DNA of 64,000 nt from Candidatus Parcubacteria bacterium (GTDB taxonomy: Bacteria > Patescibacteriota > Minisyncoccia > UBA6257 > HR35). Within the stretch, counting starts at the first letter, position 1. Each line of letters starts with the position of its first letter. The translations under genes were made by a program, and so were the position numbers. Below the pieces are notes generated by a model. The model had not been told where the DNA came from and made no database searches. It worked only from the letters and a program-made list of their open reading frames with translations. Location: NCBI GenBank assembly GCA_026004495.1, contig BPJG01000001.1, forward strand, positions 70,470-134,469, read 5' to 3'. Below, piece after piece: positions 2-63,656 of the stretch.

Positions 2-235
2 CTTCAAGGCTTAGCAGATGAAAGAAATGAATCAGTCAAAAAATTAATTAGTGAAGTAATTAGAAAATGTAAAGAAAAAGGAAAATATGTAGGAATTTGC
101 GGACAAGCACCAAGTGATTTTCCAGAAATTGTTGAATTATTGGTCAAAGAAGGAATTGAAAGTCTAAGTGTTAATAGCGATGTAGTGGTTAAAACGATTG
201 AAATGGTTAAAAAATTTGAAGATGAAAATAAATGA
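2..235 (+). CDS. 3' end of a PEP-utilizing enzyme (PEP synthase / pyruvate phosphate dikinase C-terminal domain), partial at the window edge
   Basis: Frame 2 translates to ...KGKYVGICGQAPSDFPEIVELLVKEGIESLSVNSDVV..., matching the conserved C-terminal PEP-binding domain (GICGQAPSD). It ends at TGA 233-235. Confidence 0.55.
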   Translation, partial: LQGLADERNESVKKLISEVIRKCKEKGKYVGICGQAPSDFPEIVELLVKEGIESLSVNSDVVVKTIEMVKKFEDENK

Positions 236-1502
236 TATAAAAGTAAATAAAATTTTAGACTCAAGAGGAGAATGGACAATTGATATTGAAATTGAAAGTG
301 AAGGAATAAAAGAAAAAGCCTCAATCCCTTCTGGAAAAAGTATTGGCTCTCATGAAGTTGTTTGTTTAGATTGTGAAAAAATTAAAAAGAACTTAGATGA
401 ATTGTTGAAAGATATAAAAAATAATGATTTTCAAAATCTAAAAGAATTAGATGAATTTTTAATTAAAAGAGCAGGGAAGAATAAAGAAAAATTAGGAGGT
501 AACTTTACTTTAGGAATTTCAATTAGTTTTGCTCGCGTTTTGGCTAAAAGCAAAAATTTGGAGTTGTTTGAATATTTAAAGAACGAATATGCTCTAATAA
601 TAGAAGATGAATTTAGACAAATACCAAGATTAATTTTAAATATTATTGGTGGTGGAGTACATTCTTTTAATAATTTAGATTTTCAGGAATATTGGTTGGT
701 GACGCAGAACTACGCTGAACTGACGCAGAACTACGCAGACAATAATAAAACGCAAACCAATGCGAACTATAAGCTAAATAACGCTAAATTTCAGGTGAAC
801 TTATCCGAAGGAGAAAATTATTATGAAACGCAAAGCGATAAGAACTTAATGCGACTCAAAGCAAATAAATATGAATTTCTTATTTTTTTAATCATAGAAA
901 TCATAAATATTATTAATCAACTTGAAAATAAACTACCTAAACCATTAGGAAGAAATGATGAAGGAGCATTTTGTACAAACTTTAGTGATGATTATGAACC
1001 ATTTTTATATTTAAAAGAAGTTAATAATTTTGAACTTGGAGCTGATATTGCCGCTAATCAAATAACAAAGGTAGTTAATTGGGAAAATGTTTATCGCAAA
1101 CTAAAAATTTTGGGTGTTAAATATTTAGAAGATCCTTATAGAGAAAATGAATTTGAAAAATTTGCTGAACTTCGAAAAGAAGGATTTAAAGTAATTGGCG
1201 ATGATTTAACAGTGACCAATATTGAAAGATTAAAAATTGCCTTAGATAAAAATTCTGTTGATGGTGTAATTGTTAAACCTAATCAAATTGGCACCATAAC
1301 TGAAGCATTTAATTTTGTTAAATTAGCCAAAACAAATAATTTATTTACAATTTTTTCTCATCGAAGTGGAGAAACTAATGATAATTGGATAATTGATTTA
1401 GGAATTGCTTTTGGAGCAGATTATTTTAAAATTGGTGTTCCTTTACAAGGCGAAAGAGTGGCAAAATATAATAGACTTTTAGAGATTTATGGTAAAATTT
1501 AA
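198..1502 (+). CDS. eno: Enolase (phosphopyruvate hydratase) carrying an in-frame repeat insertion around 700-790
   Basis: N-terminus INDIKVNKILDSRGEWTIDIEI...SIPSGKSIG. C-terminus SHRSGETND...GERVAKYNRLLEI. Internal NDEGAF matches enolase. The likely true start is ATG 222, which overlaps the upstream stop. Confidence 0.88.
   Translation: MKWLKNLKMKINDIKVNKILDSRGEWTIDIEIESEGIKEKASIPSGKSIGSHEVVCLDCEKIKKNLDELLKDIKNNDFQNLKELDEFLIKRAGKNKEKLGGNFTLGISISFARVLAKSKNLELFEYLKNEYALIIEDEFRQIPRLILNIIGGGVHSFNNLDFQEYWLVTQNYAELTQNYADNNKTQTNANYKLNNAKFQVNLSEGENYYETQSDKNLMRLKANKYEFLIFLIIEIINIINQLENKLPKPLGRNDEGAFCTNFSDDYEPFLYLKEVNNFELGADIAANQITKVVNWENVYRKLKILGVKYLEDPYRENEFEKFAELRKEGFKVIGDDLTVTNIERLKIALDKNSVDGVIVKPNQIGTITEAFNFVKLAKTNNLFTIFSHRSGETNDNWIIDLGIAFGADYFKIGVPLQGERVAKYNRLLEIYGKI
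700..790 (+). repeat. GC-rich dispersed repeat copy, in-frame inside eno (encodes TQNYAELTQNYADNNKTQTNANYKLNNAK)
   Basis: ACGCAGA-type motif repeated. The core 731-764 (CTACGCAGACAATAATAAAACGCAAACCAATGCG) matches copies at 1976-2010 and 2551-2585. Local GC is much higher than the surroundings. Confidence 0.7.
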
Positions 1503-2072: not shown

Positions 2073-3941
2073 ATGAAGATATTAATTTTAGGTGGAGGAT
2101 TTGGAGGTACTTATACTTTAAAACATTTGCATAAGTTTTTTCATAATAAGAAGAAAGTAAAATTGGTATTGGTAAATAAAAAGAATTATTTTATTTTTAC
2201 GCCTTTGCTTCATGAAGTCGCTACTGGTGGAGTTTCAATCGATAATGCTTTAGAACCTATAAGAGAAATTATTAAATGTTGCGATTTTGATTTTATCCAT
2301 GGAGAAGTTGAAAAAATTGATTTAGAAAATAAAGTTGTTTATATAAATAAAGAAAGAGAAAATTATAATGTTGATTACGATTATTTAGTTATTGCTTTAG
2401 GTTCAAAAACAAATTATTATAATATTACAGGCGCTAAAGAATTTACCTTTTCTTTAAAAACAGTTGATGATGCCATAAGGCTGAAAAATAGATTTGTTCA
2501 TATGTTTGAATTAGCGAGTGTAGCGCAGACCTGCGCAGACTACACGCAGACTAACGCAGACAATATTAAGACGCAGACTGATGCGAACTACACGCAGGCT
2601 GATGCAGGCAATAATGTAGTGCAGACTAATGCAGAAAACAACGAGAATTTTCTTTATGAAGATTTAAGCTATAAAATTATAGGAATAGCTTATAAAATTA
2701 AAAAGAATTTAGGATTGGGACATAAAGAAAAAGTTTATACGAATTCCCTTGAACTTGAACTTAAAAAAGAAAATATCATTTATAAAAGAGAGGAAAAAAT
2801 CAGCGTGGTATATGATGGAAAAATAGTAGGAAACTATATACCAGATTTTGTAATAGAGGATAAAATTATTGTGGAATTAAAAACACTCCCCTTAATAGAT
2901 GAGAAGACAAAAAAGCAAATCTGGAATTATTTAAAGGGAACTAAATATAGACTTGCAATTTTGATTAATTTTGGCAAGAAAGATGTGGAAATATCTAGGA
3001 TAATTTATGATAAAGCAAGAAATTCTAATAGTCAGCAAGAGTCTGCGTCCAGTCAGAAGGTTGATAATAATGAAAGTCTGCAAAAGTCCGCGTCCAGTCT
3101 GCAAAAGTCTGAGTCTAATAAATATTTAACTTTTGTCATTGTCGGAGGTGGAGCAACTGGAGTTGAACTTGCTGGTGAAATGAGTGATTTGTTTTATAAA
3201 ACATTTAGTAAATTATATTCATCAGATTTAATTTCACAAGTTAAAATAATTCTAATCGAAAAAGGCAAAGAATTAATTCCTCAATTTTCTCCAAAATTAA
3301 GACAAAAAGCACTTGAAAGGTTAAAAAAATTAAAAGTTGATATTAGATTGGAAAGAGGAGTAATTGAAGTTGGTGAAGATTTTATTAAACTTGATGATGG
3401 TAATGTTATCGAAACAAAAACAGTTATTTGGGCAGCAGGAGTTGAAACTAATTTACCAGAAATTATTGGCAAGGTTGAAAAGGATAATAAAGGAAGATTA
3501 GTTGTAAATGAATATCTACAAGTAAAAAAGAAAATAGATATGTTAAGTCAGCAAGAATCTGCGTTAAGTCAGCAAGAGTCTGCGTACGATAATGTTTTTG
3601 CCATTGGTGATGTTTGTTGTTTTATTCAAGACCAAAAGCCTTTGCCACAATTAGCTCAAGTTGCAGTTAGACAAGTAAAAACAGTTTCTTTAAATATTAA
3701 AAATTCGATTGAAAATAAGACTTTACAAAAATTTGCTTACAAACATACTGGTGATTTAATTTCAGTTGGTAGATTTTATGCCCTAGGAGAAATTAAAGGA
3801 GTTGAATTTTCAGGTTTAATTAGTTGGTTTATTTGGAAAGGAGTTTATTTAAGCAAAATTATTTCTTTTCGAGATCAAATCAAAACATTTATTGATTGGC
3901 TTTTGAATTTATTTTTACCCAGAGATATTACTGAATTATAA
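2073..3941 (+). CDS. ndh: Type II NADH:quinone oxidoreductase (NDH-2). It is interrupted in-frame by a ~200-aa insertion (2519-3122) and a 14-aa repeat insertion (3542-3587)
   Basis: N-terminus MKILILGGGFGGTY...FTPLLHEVATGG. Second Rossmann motif LTFVIVGGGATGVELAGE. AIGDV near the C-terminus. At 622 aa it is about 200 aa longer than a typical ~420-aa NDH-2. Confidence 0.8.
   Translation: MKILILGGGFGGTYTLKHLHKFFHNKKKVKLVLVNKKNYFIFTPLLHEVATGGVSIDNALEPIREIIKCCDFDFIHGEVEKIDLENKVVYINKERENYNVDYDYLVIALGSKTNYYNITGAKEFTFSLKTVDDAIRLKNRFVHMFELASVAQTCADYTQTNADNIKTQTDANYTQADAGNNVVQTNAENNENFLYEDLSYKIIGIAYKIKKNLGLGHKEKVYTNSLELELKKENIIYKREEKISVVYDGKIVGNYIPDFVIEDKIIVELKTLPLIDEKTKKQIWNYLKGTKYRLAILINFGKKDVEISRIIYDKARNSNSQQESASSQKVDNNESLQKSASSLQKSESNKYLTFVIVGGGATGVELAGEMSDLFYKTFSKLYSSDLISQVKIILIEKGKELIPQFSPKLRQKALERLKKLKVDIRLERGVIEVGEDFIKLDDGNVIETKTVIWAAGVETNLPEIIGKVEKDNKGRLVVNEYLQVKKKIDMLSQQESALSQQESAYDNVFAIGDVCCFIQDQKPLPQLAQVAVRQVKTVSLNIKNSIENKTLQKFAYKHTGDLISVGRFYALGEIKGVEFSGLISWFIWKGVYLSKIISFRDQIKTFIDWLLNLFLPRDITEL
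2519..3122 (+). mobile_element. In-frame insertion module: left ACGCAGAC-type repeats (2519-2645), a GxxExxY / PD-(D/E)XK-like domain (about 2649-3020), then right inverted GTCTGCGT-type repeats (3031-3116)
   Basis: The domain sequence FLYEDLSYKIIGIAYKIKKNLGLGHKEKVYTNSLELELKK...IPDFVIEDKIIVELKTL...KQIWNYLKGTKYRLAILINFG matches the GxxExxY family. The flanks are reverse complements of each other (ACGCAGAC versus GTCTGCGT). The host NDH-2 resumes exactly in frame. Confidence 0.5.
3542..3587 (+). repeat. Tandem 21/22-bp repeat (GTTAAGTCAGCAAGARTCTGCG x2) inserted in-frame in ndh, encoding LSQQESALSQQESA
   Basis: Direct tandem duplication. It contains the TCTGCG(T) motif shared with the 3031-3116 repeats. 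Confidence 0.65.
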
Positions 3942-10985: not shown

Positions 10986-12674
10986 ATGATAGAATTGCCA
11001 TTTATATTCAAATTATCAATATTATTTTTAATCTCCTTTATTTTAGGTTTTTTATTTAATTTAATAAAACAACCTTTAATAATCGCCTATATTATATCTG
11101 GAATTATAGCCGGAAATTATTTAATTGATTCTTTAGAAACTAAAAATATTTTAAGCATATTTTCAGAAATCGGTGTAGCTTTAATGCTTTTTATTGTTGG
11201 CTTAGAGTTAAAACTAAAAGTTATTAAGGATATTGGAAAAAATGTTGCAATCATAGCTATCTTGCAAGAACTATCAGTAATTATTTTGGGTTTTGTGATA
11301 TCCTTAATTTTAGGTTTTAACCATATAGAATCTCTTTATATAGGAATTGCCCTTTCTTTTAGTAGTACAATTATTATTATTAAATTACTTTCTGATAAGG
11401 GCGATTTAGAAAAATTTTATGGTAAATTAGCTATTGGTTTTTTAATTATCCAAGATATAATATCAATAATTTTAATATTATTAATTCCATTTTTTTCCCT
11501 TAATAAAAATTTTATAAACCTAGAAAACAATTTATTAATTATTAGTTTTGTAATATTATTAATATTTTTTACGGTTCGTTATTTAATTCCTAAATTAGAA
11601 AATTTAATTACCAAAACAAATGAATTGCTATTTATTTTCTCATTCTCCTTTGTTTTATTATTATCTTCATTATTTAAATTAGTGGGAATAGGATTAGAAA
11701 TTGGAGCTTTGATAGCTGGACTAATATTAGCTAATTATCAATTTAGTTCAGAAATTAATTTTAAGTTGAGGCCAATAAAAAATTTTTTCTTAATAATATT
11801 TTTTATATATTTAGGTTTAAATATTAAATTTCCTCAAATAGAAAATGAATTGTTTAAAATCTTAACATTTTCCTTTTTTATTTTGATAATTCAACCAATA
11901 ATCAGTTTTTTCTTATTAAAATTACTTAAAATAGGTAATAGGCAAGCTTTTAAATTTAGTTTGATTTCGGCACAAATAAGTGAATTCTCTTTTATTATTA
12001 TCGGTCTTGGAAATAAATTAGGTCAAATAGAAAATAATTTATTCTCAACAATTTCTTTTATCGGAATTATAACTATATTTCTTTCAATTTATATGTTTTA
12101 TTATTCAGACAAAATATACAATTTAATTTTTAAAAAAATATTAAAAATAAAAGATAGGGTTAATATTGATGAAGAAATAAAAAATAAAAATTTTAATATA
12201 CTTCTTATTGGTTGTGATAGAACAGGTTATAGTTTCTTACTAAGTATTAAGGAAAATAAAGAAAAGATTTTAATAATAGAAAATAATTATCAAAAAGTTT
12301 TAGAATTAAAAAAAATAAATTATAATGTTATCTATGGTGATATAGATGAATTTGAATTGTTAGATGAAATAAATCTTAAGCAGTTTAAAATAATAATTTC
12401 TACAATACCTGATTTTGAAACAAATTTAATACTATTAAGAAGATATAAAAAAGACAATCCCAAAGGAATATTTATTTGTAATTCTAATAAATTTAAAGAT
12501 AATTTAGAATTATACAAAAATGGAGCAAGTTTTGTTAACTTACCCCATTCTTTGGGAGGAGAAAAAATAGCTGATTTAGTTAATAATTTTGGTTTTGAAA
12601 TAGATGAATATGAAGCTATTAAAAAAGAAAATTTTGAAAAGATATATAAAATAATTAATTATTTAAAAATTTAA
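10986..12674 (+). CDS. Monovalent cation:proton antiporter (CPA2, Kef-type) with a C-terminal RCK/TrkA-N domain
   Basis: About 12 TM helices, followed by NILLIGCDRTGYSFLL, a Rossmann-like RCK motif. Confidence 0.75.
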   Translation: MIELPFIFKLSILFLISFILGFLFNLIKQPLIIAYIISGIIAGNYLIDSLETKNILSIFSEIGVALMLFIVGLELKLKVIKDIGKNVAIIAILQELSVIILGFVISLILGFNHIESLYIGIALSFSSTIIIIKLLSDKGDLEKFYGKLAIGFLIIQDIISIILILLIPFFSLNKNFINLENNLLIISFVILLIFFTVRYLIPKLENLITKTNELLFIFSFSFVLLLSSLFKLVGIGLEIGALIAGLILANYQFSSEINFKLRPIKNFFLIIFFIYLGLNIKFPQIENELFKILTFSFFILIIQPIISFFLLKLLKIGNRQAFKFSLISAQISEFSFIIIGLGNKLGQIENNLFSTISFIGIITIFLSIYMFYYSDKIYNLIFKKILKIKDRVNIDEEIKNKNFNILLIGCDRTGYSFLLSIKENKEKILIIENNYQKVLELKKINYNVIYGDIDEFELLDEINLKQFKIIISTIPDFETNLILLRRYKKDNPKGIFICNSNKFKDNLELYKNGASFVNLPHSLGGEKIADLVNNFGFEIDEYEAIKKENFEKIYKIINYLKI

Positions 12675-23188: not shown

Positions 23189-23212
23189 TGTCTAATTTGA
23201 ATATTATTTTAA

Positions 23213-23223
23213 ATTATATCACA
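23213..23223 (-). promoter_or_regulatory. Extended -10 element (TGATATAAT on the minus strand), about 25 nt upstream of the E1-like gene start
   Basis: Reverse complement of plus-strand 23213-23223 is TGTGATATAAT. Confidence 0.4.
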
Positions 23224-23272
23224 ATCAATATAGTTTTTAAAAAATTATTTATTTTTTACTTATTTATTTCTC

Positions 23273-23288
23273 AATTTCTTAAGAAATT
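23273..23288. promoter_or_regulatory. 16-bp perfect palindrome AATTTCTTAAGAAATT, a candidate operator upstream of the operon promoter
   Basis: Perfect dyad symmetry read directly from the sequence. Confidence 0.35.
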
Positions 23289-23427
23289 AAGAAAAACAAA
23301 ATTTTCTAATTTAATACATACGATGTCTTATTAATTTTTTTCATTATTCATCTCTATAGCAGAAAATAATGAAAATGCTTTGGAGTTTTGGAAAAATAAT
23401 AAAAACTTTGAATAAGGAGGTAAGACC

Positions 23428-23580
23428 ATGAGAGCCGTTCGAGTTGAAGAGCTAGAAATAATTTGTCACGAAGTAAGGCGCCGGATGTTCCAAACCATCC
23501 TCAATGCGGGAAGCGGTCATCTCTGTAGTTCGTCTTCCTCTGTGGAATGCATTTTTAGAAGTCTACAGAAATTTATAAAT
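23428..23580 (+). pseudogene. Transketolase / DXP-synthase N-terminal fragment (~45 aa of homology) behind a strong AAGGAGGT SD, then degenerate
   Basis: MRAVRVEELEIICHEVRRRMFQTILNAGSGHLCSSSSSVECIF resembles the SGHxGxSLSxxEI motif of transketolase N-termini. The ORF stops after 76 aa. Confidence 0.4.
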
Positions 23581-23893
23581 CTATATGTCTTCTGTTTAAT
23601 TTGTTTTGGTAATGTAAAATCCCATTCAGAATCTATACCCGGAGAACTGAAAGTATAAAGAAGTGATAGTCTGCTGTTTATAGAACTAGTAATTTCAAGA
23701 AGATGAGATAGAGTCATCCCATATCCGATAGAAGCAGAAACTGGTTTCTGGCTATTGTAATTGATCCCAAAAAGAAGTATTCTGCTGTCGATAAATTGTG
23801 TGGTAGTAAAATTGCTTCCGTGTATATTCTTTTGCCTACCCAGTTTTGTAGATGCCTCTCGACAAAAAATATATCAACGGCTAAAATTTATTG

Positions 23894-24723
23894 CTAAATT
23901 GAATAAAGCTCGTTGGCAATTGATGAAACCTTTTCATTTGGGTTTTTTATTTTGTGTAAAAACTCCTTGAAAACACCTCGCGCATTTGACTGATTGATTT
24001 CTAAATTTTTTAAGTAAGGGTATATTGCATTAAAAATACTAAGAAATTCTGAGTCAAACATTTGATCTATAACGCGGTCGCTCATGTTTGTACCAATTCA
24101 ATTATATCTCTCAAATGACCATTCGTCGTCTAGTTTTTCTAATGAGTCAGCAACCATGGCTTTTGCACCTGGAGGCGAAAATTTTTTTCATTTAGTTGCT
24201 TTACAGCTGGATCTTTGAATAACGGGTTAGGATAATTTAATGATTTTTCTCCGTTATGTTTAACGATAAATCTTTTCTCCTTGTAGATATCAAAGACCGA
24301 ACGAACGAATTCCTGATACAATTTGTTGTTTGTATTGAAGTAATTGTCGTAATCACAGCTTATCTGAATACTTTTCAAATCTTTCAGAATTACATCGCTA
24401 AAATAATTCAGAACGCTTATTGGTTCAGTAAATTTATACAAGTGACTTTTCGGGATCTTATAAAAATTGAAAATAAGATCTAATGTTCTTTGATCTGTAT
24501 CATTTAGTTTTCGTTTTTGTAGAAAATTTGATACTGCATTGGCAATTTTAAAAACGGTAGAACCGCTATAATGCATGCAAATTGGGAATCGAACAGAAAA
24601 TCCCTGTTTTCGTTTCCATCTAGCCCAAACGTCAGCCAATACAAAAATCCTTGCATGACTTAAACTCAGCGGGCACACCGGATGCATGTGAGCAATATCA
24701 ATAAAATATTTTTTATCTTCCAT
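23894..24723 (-). pseudogene. N-terminal fragment of a class I aminoacyl-tRNA synthetase (MetRS-like), split by a frameshift/stop near 24086-24139, with a degenerate HIGH motif
   Basis: LADVWARWKRKQGFSVRFPICMHYSGST matches MetRS ADVWVRYQRMRGHEVNF. CDYDNYFNTNNKLYQEFVRSVFDIYKEKRFI matches MetRS YDNYHSTHSEEN...GFI. Only ~260 aa are present, against more than 500 expected. GC is higher than the surroundings. Confidence 0.5.
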
Positions 24724-26497: not shown

Positions 26498-26860
26498 TTT
26501 TTTATTAATCTTTTTATTATTTTTAGGGGCCTAAAATTTCTACTTATTTCTTCAAAATTTTTTTTACATATATCTCTATTATCTTTTGGGTAGTTACAAA
26601 GATAAATATCTAAAGTAAGGTAATTCAATTCAGGCCAAGTATGAATAGTAATGTGAGATTCAACCAAGCTAATCGGATCAGTGAAACCACCAGCAGAAAA
26701 TTTATAATAAAAGGATCCTAATTCGTGTATATTATATTTTTTAACAATGTTGTGAATGTATTTTTTCGTTTGATTTAAAGATTTCAGTTCTTCAACTTCT
26801 TTTGTGGTAATTTCTCCTAATATATGAAGTCTGGTAAATGGTCCGTTCTTGTTTTATTCA
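26494..26860 (-). pseudogene. Second S-adenosylmethionine decarboxylase (speH-type) copy with a 1-nt frameshift near its 5' end
   Basis: LVESHITIHTWPELNYLTLDIYLCNYP carries the AdoMetDC signature. The ATG at 26858-26860 is in the +1 frame relative to the body (MNKTRTDHLPDFIY* versus NGPFTRLHILGEITTKE). Confidence 0.5.
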
Positions 26861-28229: not shown

Positions 28230-29027
28230 TTAAATTAAATTTAAATTAATTATTCGTTTTTTATCAAAAAGTTTTTTAAAATCGTGTCCAATCTTGTCCA
28301 TCAAAAAAACTTTTGCTTTAGAACATTTTGTTCTTTGAAAAAAAATAGAACTGGTGTAGTTAATTGTTTCATCTGATTTACCGTGAAATATAATGATGTT
28401 AGGGTAATTTTTATCCATTTTGATAAAAGAGTCAGCCTCCTTGCCGGAAAAATATTTATCCCAACATTTATTTTCTATTCCCCTGAAAGCAAATTTATAA
28501 CCTCTTCTAAGAAATTCGAGGAAAGATATATTGAATTCATAAAATGCTTCTATATTTTTTGGGTTTTCTAGATATGCTAAAACCTCTTTTTTATGTAAAA
28601 ATAGTAAAGGAGCAAATAATAAAACATTCTTTACATCATTTTTGGATACTTTTGCAGAGATAACCGGATTACCAGCAAAACTGTAACCAATTAAATGTAG
28701 ATTTTTGTAATTCCAATATATCTCTTTATTGTCAAAAGTTTTTATCCCTTTTTTCTTTTTTACGAACTCAACTGCTAATTCTACAGTTTTTTTGCAGTTC
28801 TTATAGGTAAAACTGCCTCCACTTAACCAGCTTCCCAGATAATAAACGCTGAAGAAAGCAGTTTTTTTATCTACCTTATCAATAAAAAAATCTTTATCGA
28901 TTATTTGCGGTAACCCAGGGAAATAAATAAAAATATTTTCGACATTTACCTTGCCATTGTTAAAACTATCTTTTGTATAGTAGAAATGCAGTGCTACATT
29001 TTTATAGATAAAAAGTTCTAATTCCAT
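28230..29027 (-). CDS. Alpha/beta-hydrolase fold protein
   Basis: GYSFAG nucleophile elbow, FHGKSDE and GHDF blocks. Confidence 0.6.
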   Translation of the reverse strand: MELELFIYKNVALHFYYTKDSFNNGKVNVENIFIYFPGLPQIIDKDFFIDKVDKKTAFFSVYYLGSWLSGGSFTYKNCKKTVELAVEFVKKKKGIKTFDNKEIYWNYKNLHLIGYSFAGNPVISAKVSKNDVKNVLLFAPLLFLHKKEVLAYLENPKNIEAFYEFNISFLEFLRRGYKFAFRGIENKCWDKYFSGKEADSFIKMDKNYPNIIIFHGKSDETINYTSSIFFQRTKCSKAKVFLMDKIGHDFKKLFDKKRIINLNLI

Positions 29028-29890
29028 ATTTTTTTAAGCTAATAAATATTTTTCCCTTTACCGCATCGATAATAATTTTTTTATTTCTATAGTTATCAAT
29101 TTTTCCTTTGATTATTTTTGATTCTACAAGACAAAAAATATTAAACTCTCTCGCTATGACTGCTATGTGTAAAAGAATGCCTCCAGTTATTATTAATCCA
29201 TTAATAAATGGAATTTTTTTAATCAACGAAATGTCCAGATTGCGTTTTACTAAAACAATATCATTTTATATTTATTTTATCATAATCTTCAATGTTTTTA
29301 ATTATTTTTAAAAATCAACTTGCGATACCCTTGTAAGCAATATTTCCTGTTCCTATGATTTTACTTTTGTCAAAAGTATAATTTATAATTTGGGGATATT
29401 TGTTCAGAGTTGTAATATTTCTACTTTGGAAAATATAAATTTCCTTACCGTCCCATCCCCATTCAATATCTAAGTATTCCCAAATATACCTTCAAGATTT
29501 AATGCTATCTTTGACAATTTTTTCAAAAATTTAGATTTCAGGTTATTTATTTTGGCTTTTTCAATTACCTTGATAATTGGTTTTTTATGACAACTAACAA
29601 CAGAATCTCCCAAGTCTTGGGTATATTCTACAATCATCTTATTGATATTTTGATTAAATGGATCGGCAGTAAATATCACTCCCGCAACACCTACGGGAAT
29701 CAATTCTTGAATGGCAATAGCCATACTTTCAAATTCCAGTCTGATATCATTTATTCGCGCGTATATTTTAGCATTATCACTAAATAAAGATCGATAACAT
29801 AATATAATTGCCTTTATAATATTTTCTTCCCCTTTTATATTTAAGAAGCTTGAATATTGACCAGCAAAGCTGAAAAAAGGGGGGATCCTC
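29002..29890 (-). pseudogene. PEP synthase (ppsA-like) N-terminal and phospho-His region, broken by several frameshifts
   Basis: SFAGQYSSFLNIKGEENIIKAIILCYRSLFSDNAKIYAR (PpsA SFAGQQETFLNV...ASLFNDRAISYR), MAIAIQELIPVGVAGVIFTADP (PpsA MAVGVQRMV..SGVMFS) and GGILLHIAVIAREFNI (phospho-His loop GGRTSHAAIIARE) lie in three different frames. Confidence 0.5.
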
Positions 29891-30073
29891 TACCCACACT
29901 TTTCTTTGATTATTTTTATTTTTTTGGATTTAGTTCCTACTTCTAAATTATCATAATCTTCTATAAGTTTTATATTATGGTAAATGAAATGTTTATCACA
30001 CATTAGCTTTAAAACCTCTTCTTTTAAAAAGTTCCTTTCATCTTGGATTAATCAAATATTATTTTATAGGTCC

Positions 30074-30163
30074 TTATTTTTCCCAACGATAAATAGTAAT
30101 ATATCTAACATTAAGTAATTTCGCTATTTCAATTGTGGTCAAATAAACGTTCTTATTTTTCAT
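30074..30163 (-). CDS. Very small HTH protein (AlpA/Xis-like), 29 aa
   Basis: Manual translation gives MKNKNVYLTTIEIAKLLNVRYITIYRWEK, which matches the excisionase-type HTH signature ...LLxVxxxTIYRW. Confidence 0.3.
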   Translation of the reverse strand: MKNKNVYLTTIEIAKLLNVRYITIYRWEK

Positions 30164-30558
30164 ACAATTCATATCATTAAATGACTTTGTTATACTTATA
30201 ATATAATTGCTGAACACTTTGCTAATGGTTTAGTATAATAATAGTAAAGGTCGAACACATCACAAACTATCTACTAAAACAGTTATCATAACTAATTATA
30301 ATAAAAAAGCTTTTATTCAAGAACAAGGGTCAAATGTTCTTGACATGGGCGGATTAAAAATAAAAATCAAAAATTAGAAGAAATAGAGAGATTAGAAGAA
30401 ATAGAGAGATTAGAAATCAAATATCTTTACATCAGACCTTGACGACCTCATAACGAGTTTAATAAAAGGGCTATCTAAATATGGAAAAAGATATTTTAGA
30501 TATGTTTTATTAGTTTTAGATGATAAATAGTTTTATATAATAAAATATTTATATACAA

Positions 30559-35899: not shown

Positions 35900-36289
35900 T
35901 CAGATTATTTTTAATATAATTTCTCTTTCTCTTGGTCCGTCAAATTCAATTAAAATTACTTTTTGCCAAGTTCCCAAAATTAAGTTCTTGTTTTCAAATG
36001 GAATAAAAAGAGAAACACCAATAAGTGAAGATAAAAAATGATCGGGAAAATGTTCAGGATTATGAGGATGAATATAATTTGCTCGAGGGGTAATTTTTTC
36101 AAAGGCAGTTAAATAATCTTTATTAGCACCAGGGTCTAGATCAGCAACAGTTAAAGCGCAGGTTGTATGTAGGGCAAAAAGGAAAACTAAGCTATTTTCT
36201 TTTTCTTGGTTGGTTAAAATTTTATTTATTTCTTCAGTAATATCAATAATTTCTTTTTTTTTATTAGTTCTAATAATTAATTTAAACAT
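35900..36289 (-). CDS. YjbQ/UPF0047 family protein (secondary thiamine-phosphate synthase-like)
   Basis: HTTCALTVADLDPGANKDY...HPHNPEHFPDHFLSSLIGVSLFIPFENKNLILGTWQKVILIEFDGPRER. Confidence 0.72.
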   Translation of the reverse strand: MFKLIIRTNKKKEIIDITEEINKILTNQEKENSLVFLFALHTTCALTVADLDPGANKDYLTAFEKITPRANYIHPHNPEHFPDHFLSSLIGVSLFIPFENKNLILGTWQKVILIEFDGPREREIILKII

Positions 36290-36843
36290 TACTGATTTAT
36301 CTCTTCATTAATTTCAATAATTTTAAATTTTAATTTATCAGGATCAATATTTAGAACTTCAATAGATTTAGGCAGATTAATTAGATTATTTCTATTAATA
36401 GAAATATTATAATTACTAGGCTCTAAATCAGATAAATCAATTACTGCTTTAATATTTTCAGTTTTAAAATTTTTAAAATCAAGTTCATTGCCAGAAATTA
36501 AAACTTTTATTTTTGAAATATTTAAATTAGACACACTTAAATTATCTTTAAGGTTAATAAATTCAATTGGAACTTCAACGATTTTTTGAATCTTTGTTTT
36601 GTTATAATTATTAACTATCCAAATTGAAAAAGAAATAAATAAAGCTAAAAAGCCAAAACCAATATTTTTTATTATTTTGCTATAATCAGACTTAAAAAGA
36701 TCATTAAAGGAATTTTGAAAATAATAATTTTTTAATTCTTTTATAATCTTGTCTTCGCTAATATTAAAAAATAATTTAGTATCTTTAACAAAAGAAATTT
36801 TTCCAGTTTCTTCAGAGATAATAATAATTAAAGCATCAGATGA
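36289..36843 (-). CDS. CdaR/YbbR-like regulator region, in the same reading frame as cdaA but separated from it by one in-frame TAA
   Basis: The continuation of the cdaA frame reads SSDALIIIISEETGKISFVKD... (CdaA C-terminus), then a TM segment and YbbR-like repeats (...KIKVLISGNELDFKNFKTENIKAVIDLSDL...). Confidence 0.45.
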   Translation of the reverse strand, partial: SSDALIIIISEETGKISFVKDTKLFFNISEDKIIKELKNYYFQNSFNDLFKSDYSKIIKNIGFGFLALFISFSIWIVNNYNKTKIQKIVEVPIEFINLKDNLSVSNLNISKIKVLISGNELDFKNFKTENIKAVIDLSDLEPSNYNISINRNNLINLPKSIEVLNIDPDKLKFKIIEINEEINQ

Positions 36844-37491
36844 TTAAGATAAACCTATGGCTGATCTATGACGAGTGCCTAATCTTTGATTATAATCATA
36901 AAAATCAGGCAACGGTAAATGAGCTGAAGCATATTTAATTTTATCATTTTTAATAATAATTGCGCCATCATGGAGCGGTGAGTTTTTATTGAAAATAGTT
37001 ATTATTAGTTCTGTGCTTATTTCACTGTTAAGTAGCTTTGCACCTTGGATAATAGAATCTAGAGTGATATTTTTTTCAAAAACTAAGATGGCTCCTATTT
37101 TATTTTGAGACAAATATTTTATAGCATTTAAGATGTTATCAATTAAAACATCTTTATTATTGAGATTTTTCTTTCTTTTTGGTACAATAATAGCAATCTG
37201 TTCTAAAAAAATCCTAAGCTCTCTCTGAAAAATTACGATTAAACTTAAAATTACAAAAGGTAGATAAAATTGAAGCAAATTTTTAGTTAGAGTAAGGTTT
37301 ACCCAATTAGCTACAAGAAATAAAAATACAAGAATTGAAAAACCAAAAATGATTTTATAAGAACGTGTTTTATTAATTATAGATATAGTAAAAAATACAA
37401 GAATACTTAATAAGAAAATATCTATAACATCTTTAATATAGATATTTTTAATTAAATAAATTAATTTTTGATAATCAATAAAATTATTCAT
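36844..37491 (-). CDS. cdaA: Diadenylate cyclase CdaA (TM plus DAC domain), terminated prematurely by an in-frame TAA at 36844-36846
   Basis: Motifs HDGAIII, AAHLPL and LGTRHRSAIGLS. The stop replaces the conserved E of ...GLSE.TDA... Confidence 0.72.
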   Translation of the reverse strand: MNNFIDYQKLIYLIKNIYIKDVIDIFLLSILVFFTISIINKTRSYKIIFGFSILVFLFLVANWVNLTLTKNLLQFYLPFVILSLIVIFQRELRIFLEQIAIIVPKRKKNLNNKDVLIDNILNAIKYLSQNKIGAILVFEKNITLDSIIQGAKLLNSEISTELIITIFNKNSPLHDGAIIIKNDKIKYASAHLPLPDFYDYNQRLGTRHRSAIGLS

Positions 37492-37521: not shown

Positions 37522-38325
37522 ATGCCTGAGCTTCCTGAAATTGAAACTATTAAAAGATATTTAGAAAAAGAAATTATAGATCAAAAAATAAAAAATATTG
37601 AAATTTTTAATAAAAGAAGTTTTAAGGGTAATAAGAAAAATATTCAAGGAGCGAAAGTTATAAGACTCGAAAGAAAAGGCAAAGTGTTAGTTTTTGTTTT
37701 AAGTAATGGTTATAATCTGATGTTTCATTTAAAGATGACAGGACAAATTTTATTTTTCAATTTCTTAAAAAAATTAGCAATAGACAAATCAACGAGAGTT
37801 ATTTTTATTTTAGATAATAGCTATCTTGTTTTTAATGACATTCGTAAGTTTGGTTGGGTAAAAGTTGTTGATGATAAAAATTTAAGAGAAGAGATAAAAA
37901 GGTTGGGCATTGATGCTTTAAATTTAACTTTTGATAATCTGAAAAGAATTCTAAATAACACTAAAAGGCCAATTAAATTGGTTTTAATGGATCAAGCAAA
38001 AATCGCTGGAATTGGAAATATTTATGCAAACGAATCATTATTTTTAGCTAAAATTAATCCTCAAACTCCAGCAAATAAAATATCTGAAGAAAAAATAAAA
38101 GAATTATTAAAGGCAATTATAAAAATTTTGAAAAAAGCAATTAAATATGGAGGGACAAGTTTTAGTCTTTACCTCAAACCAGATGAGTCTAAAGGAAAAT
38201 ATCAAGAAAAATTTTTAGTTTATAAAAGAGAAGATAAAAAATGTTGGCGATGTCATAAAAATATAAAAAGAATAATTTTAGGAGGAAGAAGTACTTTCTA
38301 TTGCCTTAATTGTCAAAAATTATAA
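37522..38325 (+). CDS. mutM: Formamidopyrimidine-DNA glycosylase
   Basis: MPELPEIETIKRYL at the N-terminus and a C-terminal zinc finger CWRC...CLNC. Confidence 0.85.
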   Translation: MPELPEIETIKRYLEKEIIDQKIKNIEIFNKRSFKGNKKNIQGAKVIRLERKGKVLVFVLSNGYNLMFHLKMTGQILFFNFLKKLAIDKSTRVIFILDNSYLVFNDIRKFGWVKVVDDKNLREEIKRLGIDALNLTFDNLKRILNNTKRPIKLVLMDQAKIAGIGNIYANESLFLAKINPQTPANKISEEKIKELLKAIIKILKKAIKYGGTSFSLYLKPDESKGKYQEKFLVYKREDKKCWRCHKNIKRIILGGRSTFYCLNCQKL

Positions 38326-42312: not shown

Positions 42313-43518
42313 ATGAGAAAAATAATATTTATTCTAATAGATGGATTAGCAGACATCGCAACCAAAAATACTCCTTTAAGATTGGCATCAAAAATATTTT
42401 TGGATTCACTCAAAGGTAGAATTCATTTATCATATATTTATCCTTTAAAAAAAGAGTATTGGCCTAAAGGTGGTAATTATAGTGTTAGTGGATTAGCTAA
42501 TTTTCACTTGTTAGGATATAAATTAAAGATTAAACAATTTAAACGTGGCCCTTATGAAGCAATTGGAAGTAATATTAAGTTTAAAAATGGTTGGTTAGCC
42601 TTTAGAGTTAACTTTGCAACAGTTGATGAAAAATCATATGTTATAGATAGAAGAGCAGGAAGAAATATTTATGGTTTAGAAAAATTAACTAAAGAAATAA
42701 ATTCAATCAAATTTAAAATACCCTTTGAACTTTATCACATTGCTGGCCATCGAGGAGTTTTAATTTTTAAAACCAAACTTTCAGAAAATATTTCAGAAAA
42801 TGATCCTTATAAAACAAATTTAAGAATAAAAAAGATTAAACCCTCAAAAAAAGATTATTTATCAAAAAAAACAGCTGAATTAATTAATAATTTTTTAGAG
42901 ATAGCTTATGAAAAAATAAAAATTAGCAAAATAAATTTAGAAAGGCAAAAAAGAAATATTTTACCCGCAAATTATCTTTTAATAAGAGAGCCAGGAAATA
43001 AAATATTGAAGTTAAAAAATTTTTTTAGAAAATATAGCTTTAAAAATGGCCTTATAATAGCAACTAATGGAGTTGATAAAGGAACTTGCTTAAGTGTAGG
43101 TTTTAAAAAGTATGACCTTAATTATCCTAACAGTATTATTAATGAATTAAATAATTTAACTAAAGCTATATTTAATTTAGGAGATAAATATCAATTACTC
43201 TATTGTCATCTTAAAAAGGCAGATGAATTAAGTCATGATAAAAATTTCAATGGTAAAAAAGAATTTTTTGAAAAATTTGATGATTTTTTAAAAAAGATAT
43301 TCGCTAAATTTAAAAATGATATTTTTGTTATCACCGGTGATCATATTACTAATACTCAATCCGGCGAACATATGTTTGGTCCAGTACCTTTAATTATTAT
43401 TAACTCAAATCTAATTAATAAACCCAAAGAGATTAGTGAAATTGAAGCTATAAAATTGGGCGAGTATTTTAAAAATACTAATGATTTATGGAAATTTTTA
43501 AAACAAAATGTTAGCTAA
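42313..43518 (+). CDS. apgM: Cofactor-independent phosphoglycerate mutase, archaeal-type (ApgM family)
   Basis: ILIDGLADI at the N-terminus, VITGDH at the C-terminus, and a length of 401 aa. Confidence 0.7.
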   Translation: MRKIIFILIDGLADIATKNTPLRLASKIFLDSLKGRIHLSYIYPLKKEYWPKGGNYSVSGLANFHLLGYKLKIKQFKRGPYEAIGSNIKFKNGWLAFRVNFATVDEKSYVIDRRAGRNIYGLEKLTKEINSIKFKIPFELYHIAGHRGVLIFKTKLSENISENDPYKTNLRIKKIKPSKKDYLSKKTAELINNFLEIAYEKIKISKINLERQKRNILPANYLLIREPGNKILKLKNFFRKYSFKNGLIIATNGVDKGTCLSVGFKKYDLNYPNSIINELNNLTKAIFNLGDKYQLLYCHLKKADELSHDKNFNGKKEFFEKFDDFLKKIFAKFKNDIFVITGDHITNTQSGEHMFGPVPLIIINSNLINKPKEISEIEAIKLGEYFKNTNDLWKFLKQNVS

Positions 43519-56384: not shown

Positions 56385-56753
56385 TTATGTTATCCTAATA
56401 ATTTTTTTAAAAATAGTTTTTTTAGGTTTTAATAATTTTTTAAAGTCTTTATAAGAATTTAATATCTGCTGATGATAATTTTTAGTAAAATTACAAATAA
56501 ATAAATCTAAATTAACTAAATTTTTTTCGGGCCAAGTATGAATTGAAAGATGAGAATTAGACAAAATAAATACTATTGTTGTTCCATTATTTTTTTTAAA
56601 TGTATGATAAAGATATTTAATAAATTTTATTTTGTTTATTTTGAGAATTTTTTTTATTTCTGTTAAAAAATAATTAAATTTAACTAAGTTAAAATCACAA
56701 TTAATAAAATCTACAGAAATTTGATAACTTCTTGAAAACTTTGTTGTTTTCAT
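56385..56753 (-). CDS. speH: S-adenosylmethionine decarboxylase proenzyme (SpeH/SpeD type); the intact copy
   Basis: ILSNSHLSIHTWPEKNLVNLDLFIC carries the AdoMetDC signature (ESHxSIHTWPE). Confidence 0.7.
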   Translation of the reverse strand: MKTTKFSRSYQISVDFINCDFNLVKFNYFLTEIKKILKINKIKFIKYLYHTFKKNNGTTIVFILSNSHLSIHTWPEKNLVNLDLFICNFTKNYHQQILNSYKDFKKLLKPKKTIFKKIIRIT

Positions 56754-63056: not shown

Positions 63057-63656
63057 TTATTTTCTTTGATAAATTCTTACAGTAGCCGAACCCCAAGAAA
63101 AAGGATATAAACCTTCGTTAATCATTTCAAAATTTGAATTATCATTTATTTTCTTGGTTAAAATTATCAACCTGCTACCCTTCTTAAGCTCTAATGACAT
63201 ATTGACAATCCTTTCTAATTGTTCATCATTAAAACAAGTTGAATTAACAAAAACCAAATCACCATCACTAAAATCATTATCAAAAATATCACCCTTAATA
63301 AATTCGATAGAATTTTCGTCTTTTAAATTAAAAATATCTTTAAATCTACTATAGGCTAATTGACTTGCTTCTATAAGAGATTCAAGATACTCTATACCGA
63401 TTGATTTTTTAACATCAAAAATCAATTTAGCTAATATTACTGCCTTGCCAGTGCCAGAACCTAAATCATAAAAGATAGAATATTTATCTGCATGAGCTTT
63501 TTCTAATATTTCACAAAAACCTTCTGGTATTATTTCTCCATAAACAAAAGATTTATCATTAATGCCCCTTTTACTTCTTTCTGACAATGAAAGACTAAAA
63601 CCATCAATATCTTTATATATTTCGTTAAAAATTTTAATTTTTTCTTCCTTAGTCAT
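63057..63656 (-). CDS. Class I SAM-dependent methyltransferase (DOT1-like fold)
   Basis: FYDLGSGTGKAVILAKLI (motif I), IGIEY and GDIF. Confidence 0.55.
   Translation of the reverse strand: MTKEEKIKIFNEIYKDIDGFSLSLSERSKRGINDKSFVYGEIIPEGFCEILEKAHADKYSIFYDLGSGTGKAVILAKLIFDVKKSIGIEYLESLIEASQLAYSRFKDIFNLKDENSIEFIKGDIFDNDFSDGDLVFVNSTCFNDEQLERIVNMSLELKKGSRLIILTKKINDNSNFEMINEGLYPFSWGSATVRIYQRK

What the first reader, a model, noticed from the sequence alone, without database searches (positions are those of the whole stretch)
36289..37491. In-frame TAA at a conserved Glu codon splits a cdaA-cdaR fusion reading frame
The 1203-nt minus-strand frame encodes a TM segment plus a diadenylate-cyclase domain (HDGAIII, LGTRHRSAIGLS), then a stop, then SSDALIIIISEETGKISF, which is the canonical continuation of CdaA, running without a further stop into a TM segment and YbbR-type CdaR repeats. 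The TAA sits where homologs have GAA/CAA (GLS-E-TDA), so it is a single G-to-T change. There are three possibilities: (a) recent inactivation of c-di-AMP synthesis, which is notable because CdaA is often essential; (b) a sequencing error; or (c) translational read-through. The CdaA-CdaR single-polypeptide fusion is itself uncommon.
Basis: partly seen in the sequence, partly recalled or inferred. Interest (0 to 1): 0.65.

Follow-up and report, generated by a model that had tools for sequence, protein, structure and literature searches.

The report
Single stop codon breaks cdaA-ybbR gene
In a tiny hot-spring Parcubacteria genome, one TAA stop codon cuts the gene for the enzyme that makes the signalling molecule c-di-AMP, and the most likely reading is an ordinary, very recent knock-out mutation, not a recoding event or an assembly error.

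Summary
Window 36289-37491 (minus strand) is one 401-codon frame with a single internal TAA at 36844-36846 (codon 216). The stop lies inside the diadenylate-cyclase (DAC) domain, upstream of the invariant D219/S226/E227.

The window comes from the MAG Candidatus Parcubacteria bacterium KatS3mg094 (Katase hot spring; PacBio HiFi, 21.6x, metaFlye). A separate k-mer assembly (Logan, run DRR290133) reproduces 4,377 bp around the site, including the TAA, at 100% identity. A consensus error is therefore unlikely.

TAA ends 36 of 50 long ORFs in the window. The stop is absent from every homolog; the syntenic ortholog in sister MAG KatS3mg095 has GAA. No RNA structure follows the stop. Read-through or recoding therefore has no support.

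Nothing else in the gene is damaged, and the downstream half is as conserved as it is in intact homologs, so the lesion is very young.

Best reading (about 0.7): a genuine GAA-to-TAA null allele in a genome that also holds an older, multi-lesion pseudogene.

The CdaA-YbbR fusion is the normal form in this clade. Loss of all c-di-AMP synthesis cannot be claimed: relatives carry a second copy next to enolase-PPDK, and that position lies just outside this window. Interest is low.

The parts
36289..37491 (-). Complete interrupted cdaA-ybbR reading frame: 400 sense positions plus the internal TAA, ending in a terminal TAA
   Evidence: Pfam and NCBIfam hits; tblastn of intact homologs aligns straight through the stop
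36844..36846 (-). Internal TAA (codon 216), followed by T. The ortholog in KatS3mg095 has GAA here
36847..37491 (-). The 215-aa product that would actually be made (GIW65586.1, deposited as 'ABC transporter permease'). It has 3 TM helices and a DAC domain truncated before D219/S226/E227
37219..37446 (-). CdaA_N transmembrane domain, residues 16-91 (three hydrophobic segments, 17-89)
36775..37128 (-). DAC (diadenylate cyclase) domain, residues 122-239, spanning the stop. DGA is at 36961-36969, RHR at 36865-36873 and SEETG at 36802-36816
36613..36663 (-). Fourth hydrophobic segment (IGFGFLALFISFSIWIV, residues 277-293), which would carry the chain back across the membrane
   Evidence: read from the sequence; aligned with hydrophobic segments in all fused homologs. 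The topology is inferred
36319..36573 (-). Single YbbR (CdaR-type) domain, residues 307-391
36289..36534 (-). 81-aa GTG-start ORF, deposited as hypothetical protein KatS3mg094_104 (GIW65585.1). It is the tail of the YbbR domain and is most likely an annotation by-product of the stop
35900..36289 (-). Downstream yjbQ/UPF0047 gene. Its ATG overlaps the terminal TAA of cdaA-ybbR by one base (TAATG), so premature termination may remove translational coupling (inferred)
37522..38325 (+). Divergent fpg (formamidopyrimidine-DNA glycosylase) gene. The order fpg | cdaA-ybbR | yjbQ is shared with KatS3mg095, which identifies P0001 as the ortholog

Best explanation
This is a genuine, very recent nonsense mutation, most economically GAA to TAA at codon 216. 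It lies in the fpg-linked cdaA-ybbR gene of the dominant genotype of Candidatus Parcubacteria bacterium KatS3mg094. Intact, the gene encodes one membrane protein: three N-terminal TM helices, a cytoplasmic diadenylate-cyclase domain, a fourth TM helix and one extracytoplasmic YbbR (CdaR-type) domain. With the stop, ribosomes release a 215-residue product. That product keeps the DGA and RHR motifs but lacks the invariant D219, S226 and E227 of the nucleotide and metal pocket, the fourth helix and the YbbR domain. It should therefore be catalytically dead, and this copy is a null allele or nascent pseudogene. Shown: the stop, its support by two assemblies, its absence in relatives, normal use of TAA as a terminator, and the lack of any other lesion. 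Inferred: loss of activity, membrane topology, loss of coupling to yjbQ, and whether the allele is fixed or merely the majority in the population.
For: 1. The stop is in the reads. The source MAG (identified; paper PMC9671151) is a single 634,165-bp contig at 21.6x PacBio HiFi coverage. The Logan assembly of run DRR290133 gives a 4,377-bp stretch 100% identical to the window, with the same 215-aa product. The site is not in a homopolymer.

2. TAA is a normal terminator here. It ends 36 of 50 ORFs of at least 150 aa, 13 of them as TAA-T, the same context as this stop. No suppressor-type tRNA is present among the window's 4 tRNAs.

3. The stop is not conserved. All homologs have a sense codon at this column (E80/Q16/L14/S5/R4/T1). 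The syntenic ortholog in KatS3mg095 is an intact 402-aa ORF with GAA.

4. The truncation removes essential parts. D219, S226 and E227 are invariant in 120 of 120 homologs. E227 corresponds by motif spacing to Glu223 of the Listeria CdaA ATP pocket (PMC10167629; alignment to solved CdaA structures).

5. The lesion is recent. It is the only one in 401 codons. All 21 invariant columns are retained. The ratio of C-part to N-part identity to homologs is 0.94 +/- 0.12, against 1.00 +/- 0.12 among intact pairs.

6. The genome does carry real pseudogenes. A PPDK_N/PEP-utilizers remnant at about 29.0-30.3 kb has many stops and at least two frame changes.
Against: No read pile-up could be inspected. The Logan contig almost certainly derives from the same single SMRT cell as the MAG, so it is an independent assembly but not independent sequencing. 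No second strain of this organism exists in the collections searched, so the allele cannot be confirmed in another sample. The complete absence of any further damage is also what a consensus error or a functional, read-through gene would give. 4.8% of random substitutions in the downstream half would create a stop, so stop-freeness alone only bounds the age to fewer than about 60 substitutions.
Confidence: 0.7

Rival explanations
1. Consensus or sequencing error: the organism really has GAA and an intact 400-aa gene.
For: Nothing else in the gene is damaged, and the downstream half is as conserved as in intact homologs. The source is an unpolished long-read metagenome assembly. The sister MAG's second copy is split by one extra T in a T-run, a typical HiFi/assembly indel, so such assemblies do contain errors.
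Against: The change is a substitution outside any homopolymer, which is the rare HiFi error class. Coverage is 21.6x. A second, k-mer-based assembly of the run gives the identical base and 100% identity over 4,377 bp. None of the three other double-open stops examined in the 64-kb window interrupts a gene.
Confidence: 0.12
2. The TAA allele is real but is only one variant in a mixed population. An intact allele coexists, and the assemblers reported the more abundant or simply one path.
For: Metagenome consensus collapses strains. The mutation is very young. The Logan contig is only about 4.5 kb long, as expected if nearby variation or low k-mer depth breaks the graph.
Against: No alternative full-length protein (E, Q, K, S, L or Y at position 216) exists in the 15-billion-protein collection, which includes Logan calls from the same run. 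This check is weak, because a minor allele could be lost at the k-mer threshold.
Confidence: 0.1
3. Programmed or leaky read-through, or suppression, of the TAA gives a low, possibly regulated, level of full-length CdaA-YbbR.
For: The open and conserved downstream 184 codons are compatible with continued translation. The column tolerates E, Q, L, S, R and T, so insertion of almost any residue would be acceptable.
Against: TAA, and specifically TAA-T, is the main terminator in this window. The stop is not conserved in any relative. The RNA after the stop folds no better than shuffles (z = +0.5). There is no Rfam element and no suppressor tRNA in the window. From general knowledge, UAA is read by both release factors and is the least leaky stop in bacteria.
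Confidence: 0.04
4. Functional gene fission: separate CdaA-like and CdaR-like proteins are made from the two halves, as in the Firmicutes cdaA-cdaR operon.
For: CdaA and CdaR are separate proteins in Bacillus, Listeria and Staphylococcus (PMC10636490). An 81-aa ORF was annotated downstream.
Against: The break lies inside the DAC domain, not at the domain border. There is no ATG, GTG or TTG in frame between the TAA and the GTG at 36534, which sits inside the YbbR domain and after the TM helix. The upstream product lacks invariant pocket residues.
Confidence: 0.02

Closest known systems
CdaA (DacA) membrane diadenylate cyclase, TIGR00159 / Pfam CdaA_N + DAC; solved structures include 9g69, 6hvl, 4rv7, 6gyw
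   Same: Three N-terminal TM helices and a DAC domain with DGA, RHR and SEE(T)G motifs. It passes the equivalog cutoff when the stop is masked (209.3 vs 188.8 bits). Best match to a solved full-length CdaA is E 1e-40.
   Different: The frame is interrupted by TAA at codon 216. The protein continues into a fourth TM helix and a YbbR domain instead of ending after the DAC domain. No glmM is adjacent; the neighbours are fpg and yjbQ.
CdaR (YbbR) regulator of CdaA in Firmicutes
   Same: A TM helix followed by a YbbR domain (PF07949, 32.8 bits). In the fusion, the predicted topology puts the YbbR domain outside the membrane, as described for CdaR (PMC10636490).
   Different: There is one YbbR domain rather than four, and it is covalently fused to CdaA rather than encoded by a separate gene.
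Fused CdaA-YbbR proteins of Paceibacteria/Parcubacteria and other phyla (P0001-P0011, P0013, P0015, P0016, P0020, P0028, P0032, P0051, P0070)
   Same: Same length (about 390-420 aa) and architecture. Identity is 40-55% over 96-99% of the query. P0001 shares the fpg | cdaA-ybbR | yjbQ gene order.
   Different: All of them are intact ORFs with a sense codon (E, Q or S) at the stop column.
Second cdaA-ybbR copy of KatS3mg095 (P0012 plus a 98-aa upstream ORF, L084 5757-6981)
   Same: It is another broken cdaA-ybbR gene, in a MAG from the same sample.
   Different: It belongs to a different clade, the enolase-PPDK-linked one shared with P0004, P0005 and P0006. It is broken by one extra T in a run of T, which is as likely a HiFi indel error as a real frameshift.

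Membership tests
CdaA-type diadenylate cyclase (TIGR00159) | Whole-protein score above the curated equivalog cutoff | tested here: met
   209.3 bits vs cutoff 188.8, with the stop masked as E
CdaA-type diadenylate cyclase (TIGR00159) | N-terminal three-helix membrane domain (PF19293) | tested here: met
   31.4 bits vs 23.8 at residues 16-91; three hydrophobic segments at 17-89
CdaA-type diadenylate cyclase (TIGR00159) | DAC domain with DGA, RHR and SEE pocket motifs | tested here: met
   PF02457 at 131.5 bits; HDGA 174-177, TRHR 206-209, SEETG 226-230; these columns are invariant in homologs
CdaA-type diadenylate cyclase (TIGR00159) | Uninterrupted coding sequence giving a complete DAC domain | tested here: not met
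   TAA at codon 216, inside the DAC match. The sequence belongs to the family by descent but is not an intact gene
CdaA-type diadenylate cyclase (TIGR00159) | Synthesis of c-di-AMP from ATP | not testable with these tools
   Needs an enzyme assay on the 215-aa product and on the repaired 400-aa protein
CdaR / YbbR regulator | TM anchor followed by YbbR domains (four in the Bacillus protein) | tested here: inconclusive
   One YbbR domain above the cutoff (32.8 vs 22.3 bits), after a hydrophobic segment at 277-293. The count is one, not four, and it is fused rather than separate (PMC10636490)
Conserved cdaA-cdaR-glmM operon | glmM directly downstream | tested here: not met
   The downstream genes are yjbQ/UPF0047 and secF. 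The only phosphomutase-like gene nearby (42313-43518) matches PhosphMutase/Metalloenzyme and lies on the other side
Programmed stop-codon read-through or stop reassignment | The stop is conserved at the same site in relatives | tested here: not met
   0 of 120 homologs show a break at this column; the ortholog has GAA
Programmed stop-codon read-through or stop reassignment | The codon is not used as the ordinary terminator, or in-frame copies occur in other conserved genes | tested here: not met
   TAA ends 36 of 50 long ORFs. None of the three other double-open stops examined interrupts a gene
Programmed stop-codon read-through or stop reassignment | Stimulatory RNA structure or cognate suppressor tRNA | tested here: not met
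   Fold z-score +0.5; no Rfam hit apart from 4 tRNAs; the tRNA anticodons are CAA, CTT, GCG and GGG. Only the window was searched, not the whole genome

The most novel reading that the evidence does not exclude
The TAA is real, fixed, and sits in the organism's only diadenylate cyclase. In that case either this Paceibacteria episymbiont lives without c-di-AMP, a fresh natural loss of a messenger that is conditionally essential in model bacteria, or it makes a trickle of full-length enzyme by UAA read-through. My evidence does not exclude this, because the rest of the genome and the reads were out of reach.
Probability: 0.08. Interest if true: 0.45.

Novelty: new member of a known kind. Interest (0 to 1): 0.18.

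Why it matters
It matters little beyond annotation.

The two deposited proteins are fragments of a single cdaA-ybbR pseudogene and should be re-annotated. They are GIW65586.1, named 'ABC transporter permease', and GIW65585.1, named hypothetical.

The CdaA-YbbR fusion is the standard form of the enzyme in this Paceibacteria clade. That gives a natural covalent version of the CdaA-CdaR pair for anyone studying how CdaR controls the cyclase.

If the stop proved to be fixed and in the sole cyclase gene, it would be a snapshot of c-di-AMP signalling being lost during genome reduction. The present data do not show that.

Tried and rejected
1. Genome-contig scan with the family alignment. It found neither the source genome nor close relatives. 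Long 'query residues matched' spans there do not prove fusion: L002 and L042 have separate cdaA and cdaR ORFs, whereas L006 has a single 411-aa ORF.

2. Metagenome-contig scan for the 37-nt site with NNN at the stop found 0 matches.

3. Exact look-up of six repaired full-length alleles found none in the collection.

4. I tried to reach the DNA upstream of window position 1, where a second copy might lie, through exact look-ups of enolase (two candidate starts) and DoxX. Nothing was on record. The Fpg look-up also failed. The source record appears not to be served by that tool.

5. The window's own 215-aa product did not appear among the homology hits, although it is in the collection. The absence of a KatS3mg094 paralog from that list is therefore not evidence of absence.

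6. A Pfam survey of about 55 ORFs and an Rfam scan looked for other c-di-AMP parts. No pgpH, gdpP, darA, kimA or ydaO-type riboswitch was found. The only loosely related gene is a Na_H_Exchanger+TrkA_N antiporter at 10986-12674. The window is about 10% of the genome, so this absence says little.

7. The review of DAC domain architectures (Galperin 2023, PMC10127676) is not held, so I could not check whether it already lists the YbbR fusion.

8. Considered and rejected: an alternative genetic code (ORFs are long and dense under table 11); a restart at the +1-frame ATG just after the stop (it runs ATG CTT TAA); and the M16_C-only ORF as a pseudogene (the upstream gap holds an AdoMet_dc gene, not an M16 remnant).

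Full report
**The observation**

The minus strand of window 36289-37491 is a 401-codon frame that starts with ATG and ends with TAA. It contains exactly one internal stop, TAA, at codon 216 (window 36844-36846).

With that codon masked, Pfam finds three domains:
- CdaA_N at residues 16-91.
- A DAC domain at 122-239, E 1.5e-38, aligned continuously across the stop.
- One YbbR domain at 307-391.

The NCBIfam CdaA equivalog TIGR00159 scores 209.3 bits against a cutoff of 188.8. The motifs are HDGA 174-177, TRHR 206-209 and SEETG 226-230. A fourth hydrophobic segment lies at 277-293.

This is not a chance pattern. The window is 24% G+C, and only six stops in all six frames have at least 70 open codons on both sides. 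The three I translated (22076, 24727, 39153) are junctions between separate genes; 45677 and 56167 were not inspected.

**Where the sequence comes from**

Exact look-ups show that the 215-aa upstream product is GIW65586.1, deposited as 'ABC transporter permease'. An 81-aa downstream ORF is GIW65585.1 (KatS3mg094_104). Both belong to Candidatus Parcubacteria bacterium KatS3mg094, on a 634,165-bp contig.

The MAG comes from Katase hot-spring sediment. It was sequenced on one PacBio Sequel II SMRT cell (HiFi reads above Q20) and assembled with metaFlye, with no short-read step mentioned (PMC9671151). Supplementary Table S3 lists the following:
- 21.6x coverage
- one contig, not circular
- 623 CDS
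- 25.6% G+C
- GTDB placement Patescibacteria; Paceibacteria; UBA6257; HR35, a new genus

**Is the stop an artefact?**

The Logan assembly of run DRR290133 contains a 4.5-kb contig on which the same 215-aa product was called. Its 4,377 bp are 100% identical to the window, including the TAA. The same run also holds the KatS3mg095 ortholog contig, so it is the Katase sample and presumably the same SMRT cell.

This is an independent assembly, not independent sequencing. Even so, a substitution outside any homopolymer, at 21.6x HiFi coverage, reproduced by a k-mer assembler, is unlikely to be a consensus error.

No intact allele with E, Q, K, S, L or Y at position 216 is present among about 15 billion proteins. 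The 90% cluster of the fragment has a single member. A scan of JGI metagenome contigs for the site found nothing. There is therefore no second strain to compare with.

**Is TAA read as sense?**

No evidence supports that reading.
- TAA terminates 36 of 50 ORFs of at least 150 aa in the window, 13 of them as TAA-T, the same context as the internal stop.
- Genes are long and dense under table 11.
- The four tRNAs in the window have anticodons CAA, CTT, GCG and GGG.
- Rfam finds nothing apart from those tRNAs.
- The 131 nt around and after the stop fold no better than shuffled sequence (z = +0.5).
- No relative has a stop at this column. Among the best 120 homologs it is E 80, Q 16, L 14, S 5, R 4, T 1.

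**The ortholog**

The closest homolog is P0001 (55% identity, 402 aa, KatS3mg095_0851). It lies in the same gene order as in the window, from the SIMPL gene and yjbQ on one side to fpg, the inositol monophosphatase, TatD, the phosphoglycerate mutase-like gene and ArgRS on the other. It is therefore the ortholog.

Its codon at the site is GAA. A single G-to-T change is thus the most economical history. However, the column is only 67% Glu, and CAA, TTA and TCA are also one step from TAA.

**What the stop does**

Residues D219, S226 and E227 are invariant in 120 of 120 homologs, and all lie after the stop. By the spacing of the DGA, TRHR and SEE motifs, E227 corresponds to Glu223 of Listeria CdaA. 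That residue is one of the ATP-pocket side chains named in PMC10167629. The query aligns without gaps to solved CdaA structures over this stretch.

The 215-residue product keeps the membrane domain and about four fifths of the DAC fold. It lacks part of the pocket, the fourth helix and the YbbR domain. I infer that it is inactive.

There is no ATG, GTG or TTG in frame between the stop and the GTG at 36534, which lies inside the YbbR domain. A useful downstream product is therefore unlikely.

The ATG of yjbQ overlaps the gene's terminal TAA by one base (TAATG). Early termination may therefore also weaken yjbQ translation. That is an inference.

**How old is it?**

The TAA is the only lesion. 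All 21 columns invariant in the 18-sequence alignment are retained.

The downstream half is as similar to homologs, relative to the upstream half, as it is among intact homologs: the ratio is 0.94 +/- 0.12 against 1.00 +/- 0.12.

Because only 4.8% of random substitutions downstream would create a new stop, stop-freeness alone bounds the age loosely, at fewer than about 60 substitutions at the 5% level. Together with the absence of indels, it points to a very young event or a still-segregating allele.

**Context in the genome**

The window contains at least one older pseudogene. On the minus strand at about 29.0-30.3 kb, PPDK_N and PEP-utilizers matches are broken by many stops, and the DIEW...QSR motif lies in another frame. 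This remnant is not the organism's main PPDK, whose C-terminal end is at window 2-244. Gene decay is therefore occurring in this lineage.

A Pfam survey of the window found no pgpH, gdpP, darA or kimA. The only loosely c-di-AMP-related gene is a Na_H_Exchanger+TrkA_N antiporter at 10986-12674. The window is about a tenth of the genome, so this absence means little.

**Is c-di-AMP synthesis lost?**

That cannot be said from this window.

KatS3mg095 carries a second cdaA-ybbR copy (P0012 plus a 98-aa upstream ORF). It is split by one extra T in a run of T. That MAG has 7x coverage and 8.6% estimated contamination.

This second clade (P0004, P0005, P0006, P0012) sits next to enolase and PPDK in three unrelated samples and in KatS3mg095. 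The window begins exactly at the PPDK tail and enolase. A second copy in KatS3mg094 would therefore lie a few kilobases outside the window.

I could not fetch that DNA. The homology search does not show the window's own product, so its silence about a KatS3mg094 paralog is uninformative.

The complete genome KatS3mg097 shows one copy, in a third context.

From the literature, c-di-AMP is only conditionally essential: a B. subtilis strain lacking it cannot grow at otherwise tolerated potassium levels or with glutamate. CdaR is a TM protein with four extracellular YbbR domains (PMC10636490).

**The fusion**

It is not unusual in this clade. All eleven closest homologs (40-55% identity, 96-99% coverage) and 19 of the best 120 hits are single proteins of 389-691 aa. 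A Deltaproteobacteria MAG has a single 411-aa ORF of this kind.

Other loci from the genome scan have separate cdaA and cdaR genes despite long tblastn spans.

The predicted topology is three helices, a cytoplasmic DAC domain, a fourth helix and an outside YbbR domain. This matches the arrangement of separate CdaA and CdaR, but it is inferred, not shown.

**Verdict**

The feature is real. It is best explained as an ordinary, very recent nonsense allele of a clade-typical cdaA-ybbR gene in a reduced Paceibacteria genome (about 0.7).

| Alternative | Probability |
|---|---|
| Consensus error | about 0.12 |
| Mixed population | about 0.10 |
| Read-through | about 0.04 |
| Functional fission | about 0.02 |

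The practical outcome is an annotation correction. Scientific interest is low unless the reads and the rest of the genome show that the stop is fixed and lies in the only cyclase gene.

Noticed in passing
window 29000-30300 (minus strand): Multi-lesion pseudogene of a PPDK_N + PEP-utilizers family protein. The domain matches sit in one frame, interrupted by many stops, and the DIEW...QSR motif and part of the mobile domain are in another frame. Only an 84-aa ORF (29470-29724) survives. It is not the main PPDK, whose C-terminal end is at window 2-244.
   Followed up: partly
window 2073-3941 (+): A 622-aa NDH-2-like pyridine-nucleotide-disulphide oxidoreductase with a PD-(D/E)XK nuclease domain (PF13366, 112.8 bits) at residues 197-309, in frame. 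Pyr_redox_2 matched in two stretches, the best at 340-534. This is an unusual domain insertion, possibly a mobile-element remnant.
   Followed up: no
window 63057-63656 (-): A 199-aa protein with a clear DOT1-type methyltransferase match (PF08123, 76 bits). This family is known mainly from eukaryotic histone H3K79 methylation and is odd in a Patescibacteria genome.
   Followed up: no
window 24139-24723 (-) and the 950-nt gap 23189-24138: A 194-aa ORF with only a weak class-I aminoacyl-tRNA-synthetase (MetRS-type) match, far too short for a synthetase. It is followed by about 950 nt with no ORF over 80 aa. This may be another gene remnant. The plus-strand frame tested and the three minus-strand frames gave no Pfam hit in the gap.
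   Followed up: partly
L084 5757-6981 (KatS3mg095, BPJH01000002): The second cdaA-ybbR copy of the sister MAG is split into a 98-aa and a 326-aa ORF by one extra T in a run of T (ATCATTTTTTCAATCAGAA). This is either a HiFi homopolymer error at 7x coverage or a real frameshift. This clade of the gene is always near enolase-PPDK (L085, L086, L087).
   Followed up: partly
window 36847-37491 and 36289-36534: The public annotation is misleading. The 215-aa CdaA fragment is named 'ABC transporter permease' (GIW65586.1), and the tail of the YbbR domain is a separate 'hypothetical protein' (GIW65585.1).
   Followed up: yes
window 10986-12674 (+): A CPA2-type Na+/H+ (K+/H+) exchanger fused to a TrkA_N (RCK) domain, with only about 45 residues after it. 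This architecture is similar to cation/proton antiporters reported to bind c-di-AMP, but no RCK_C domain was detected.
   Followed up: no
window ~26550-26830 (-) and 56385-56753 (-): Two S-adenosylmethionine-decarboxylase-type (PF02675) genes lie in one 64-kb stretch of a 634-kb genome. The first is missed by the 80-aa ORF list because of its start codon.
   Followed up: no
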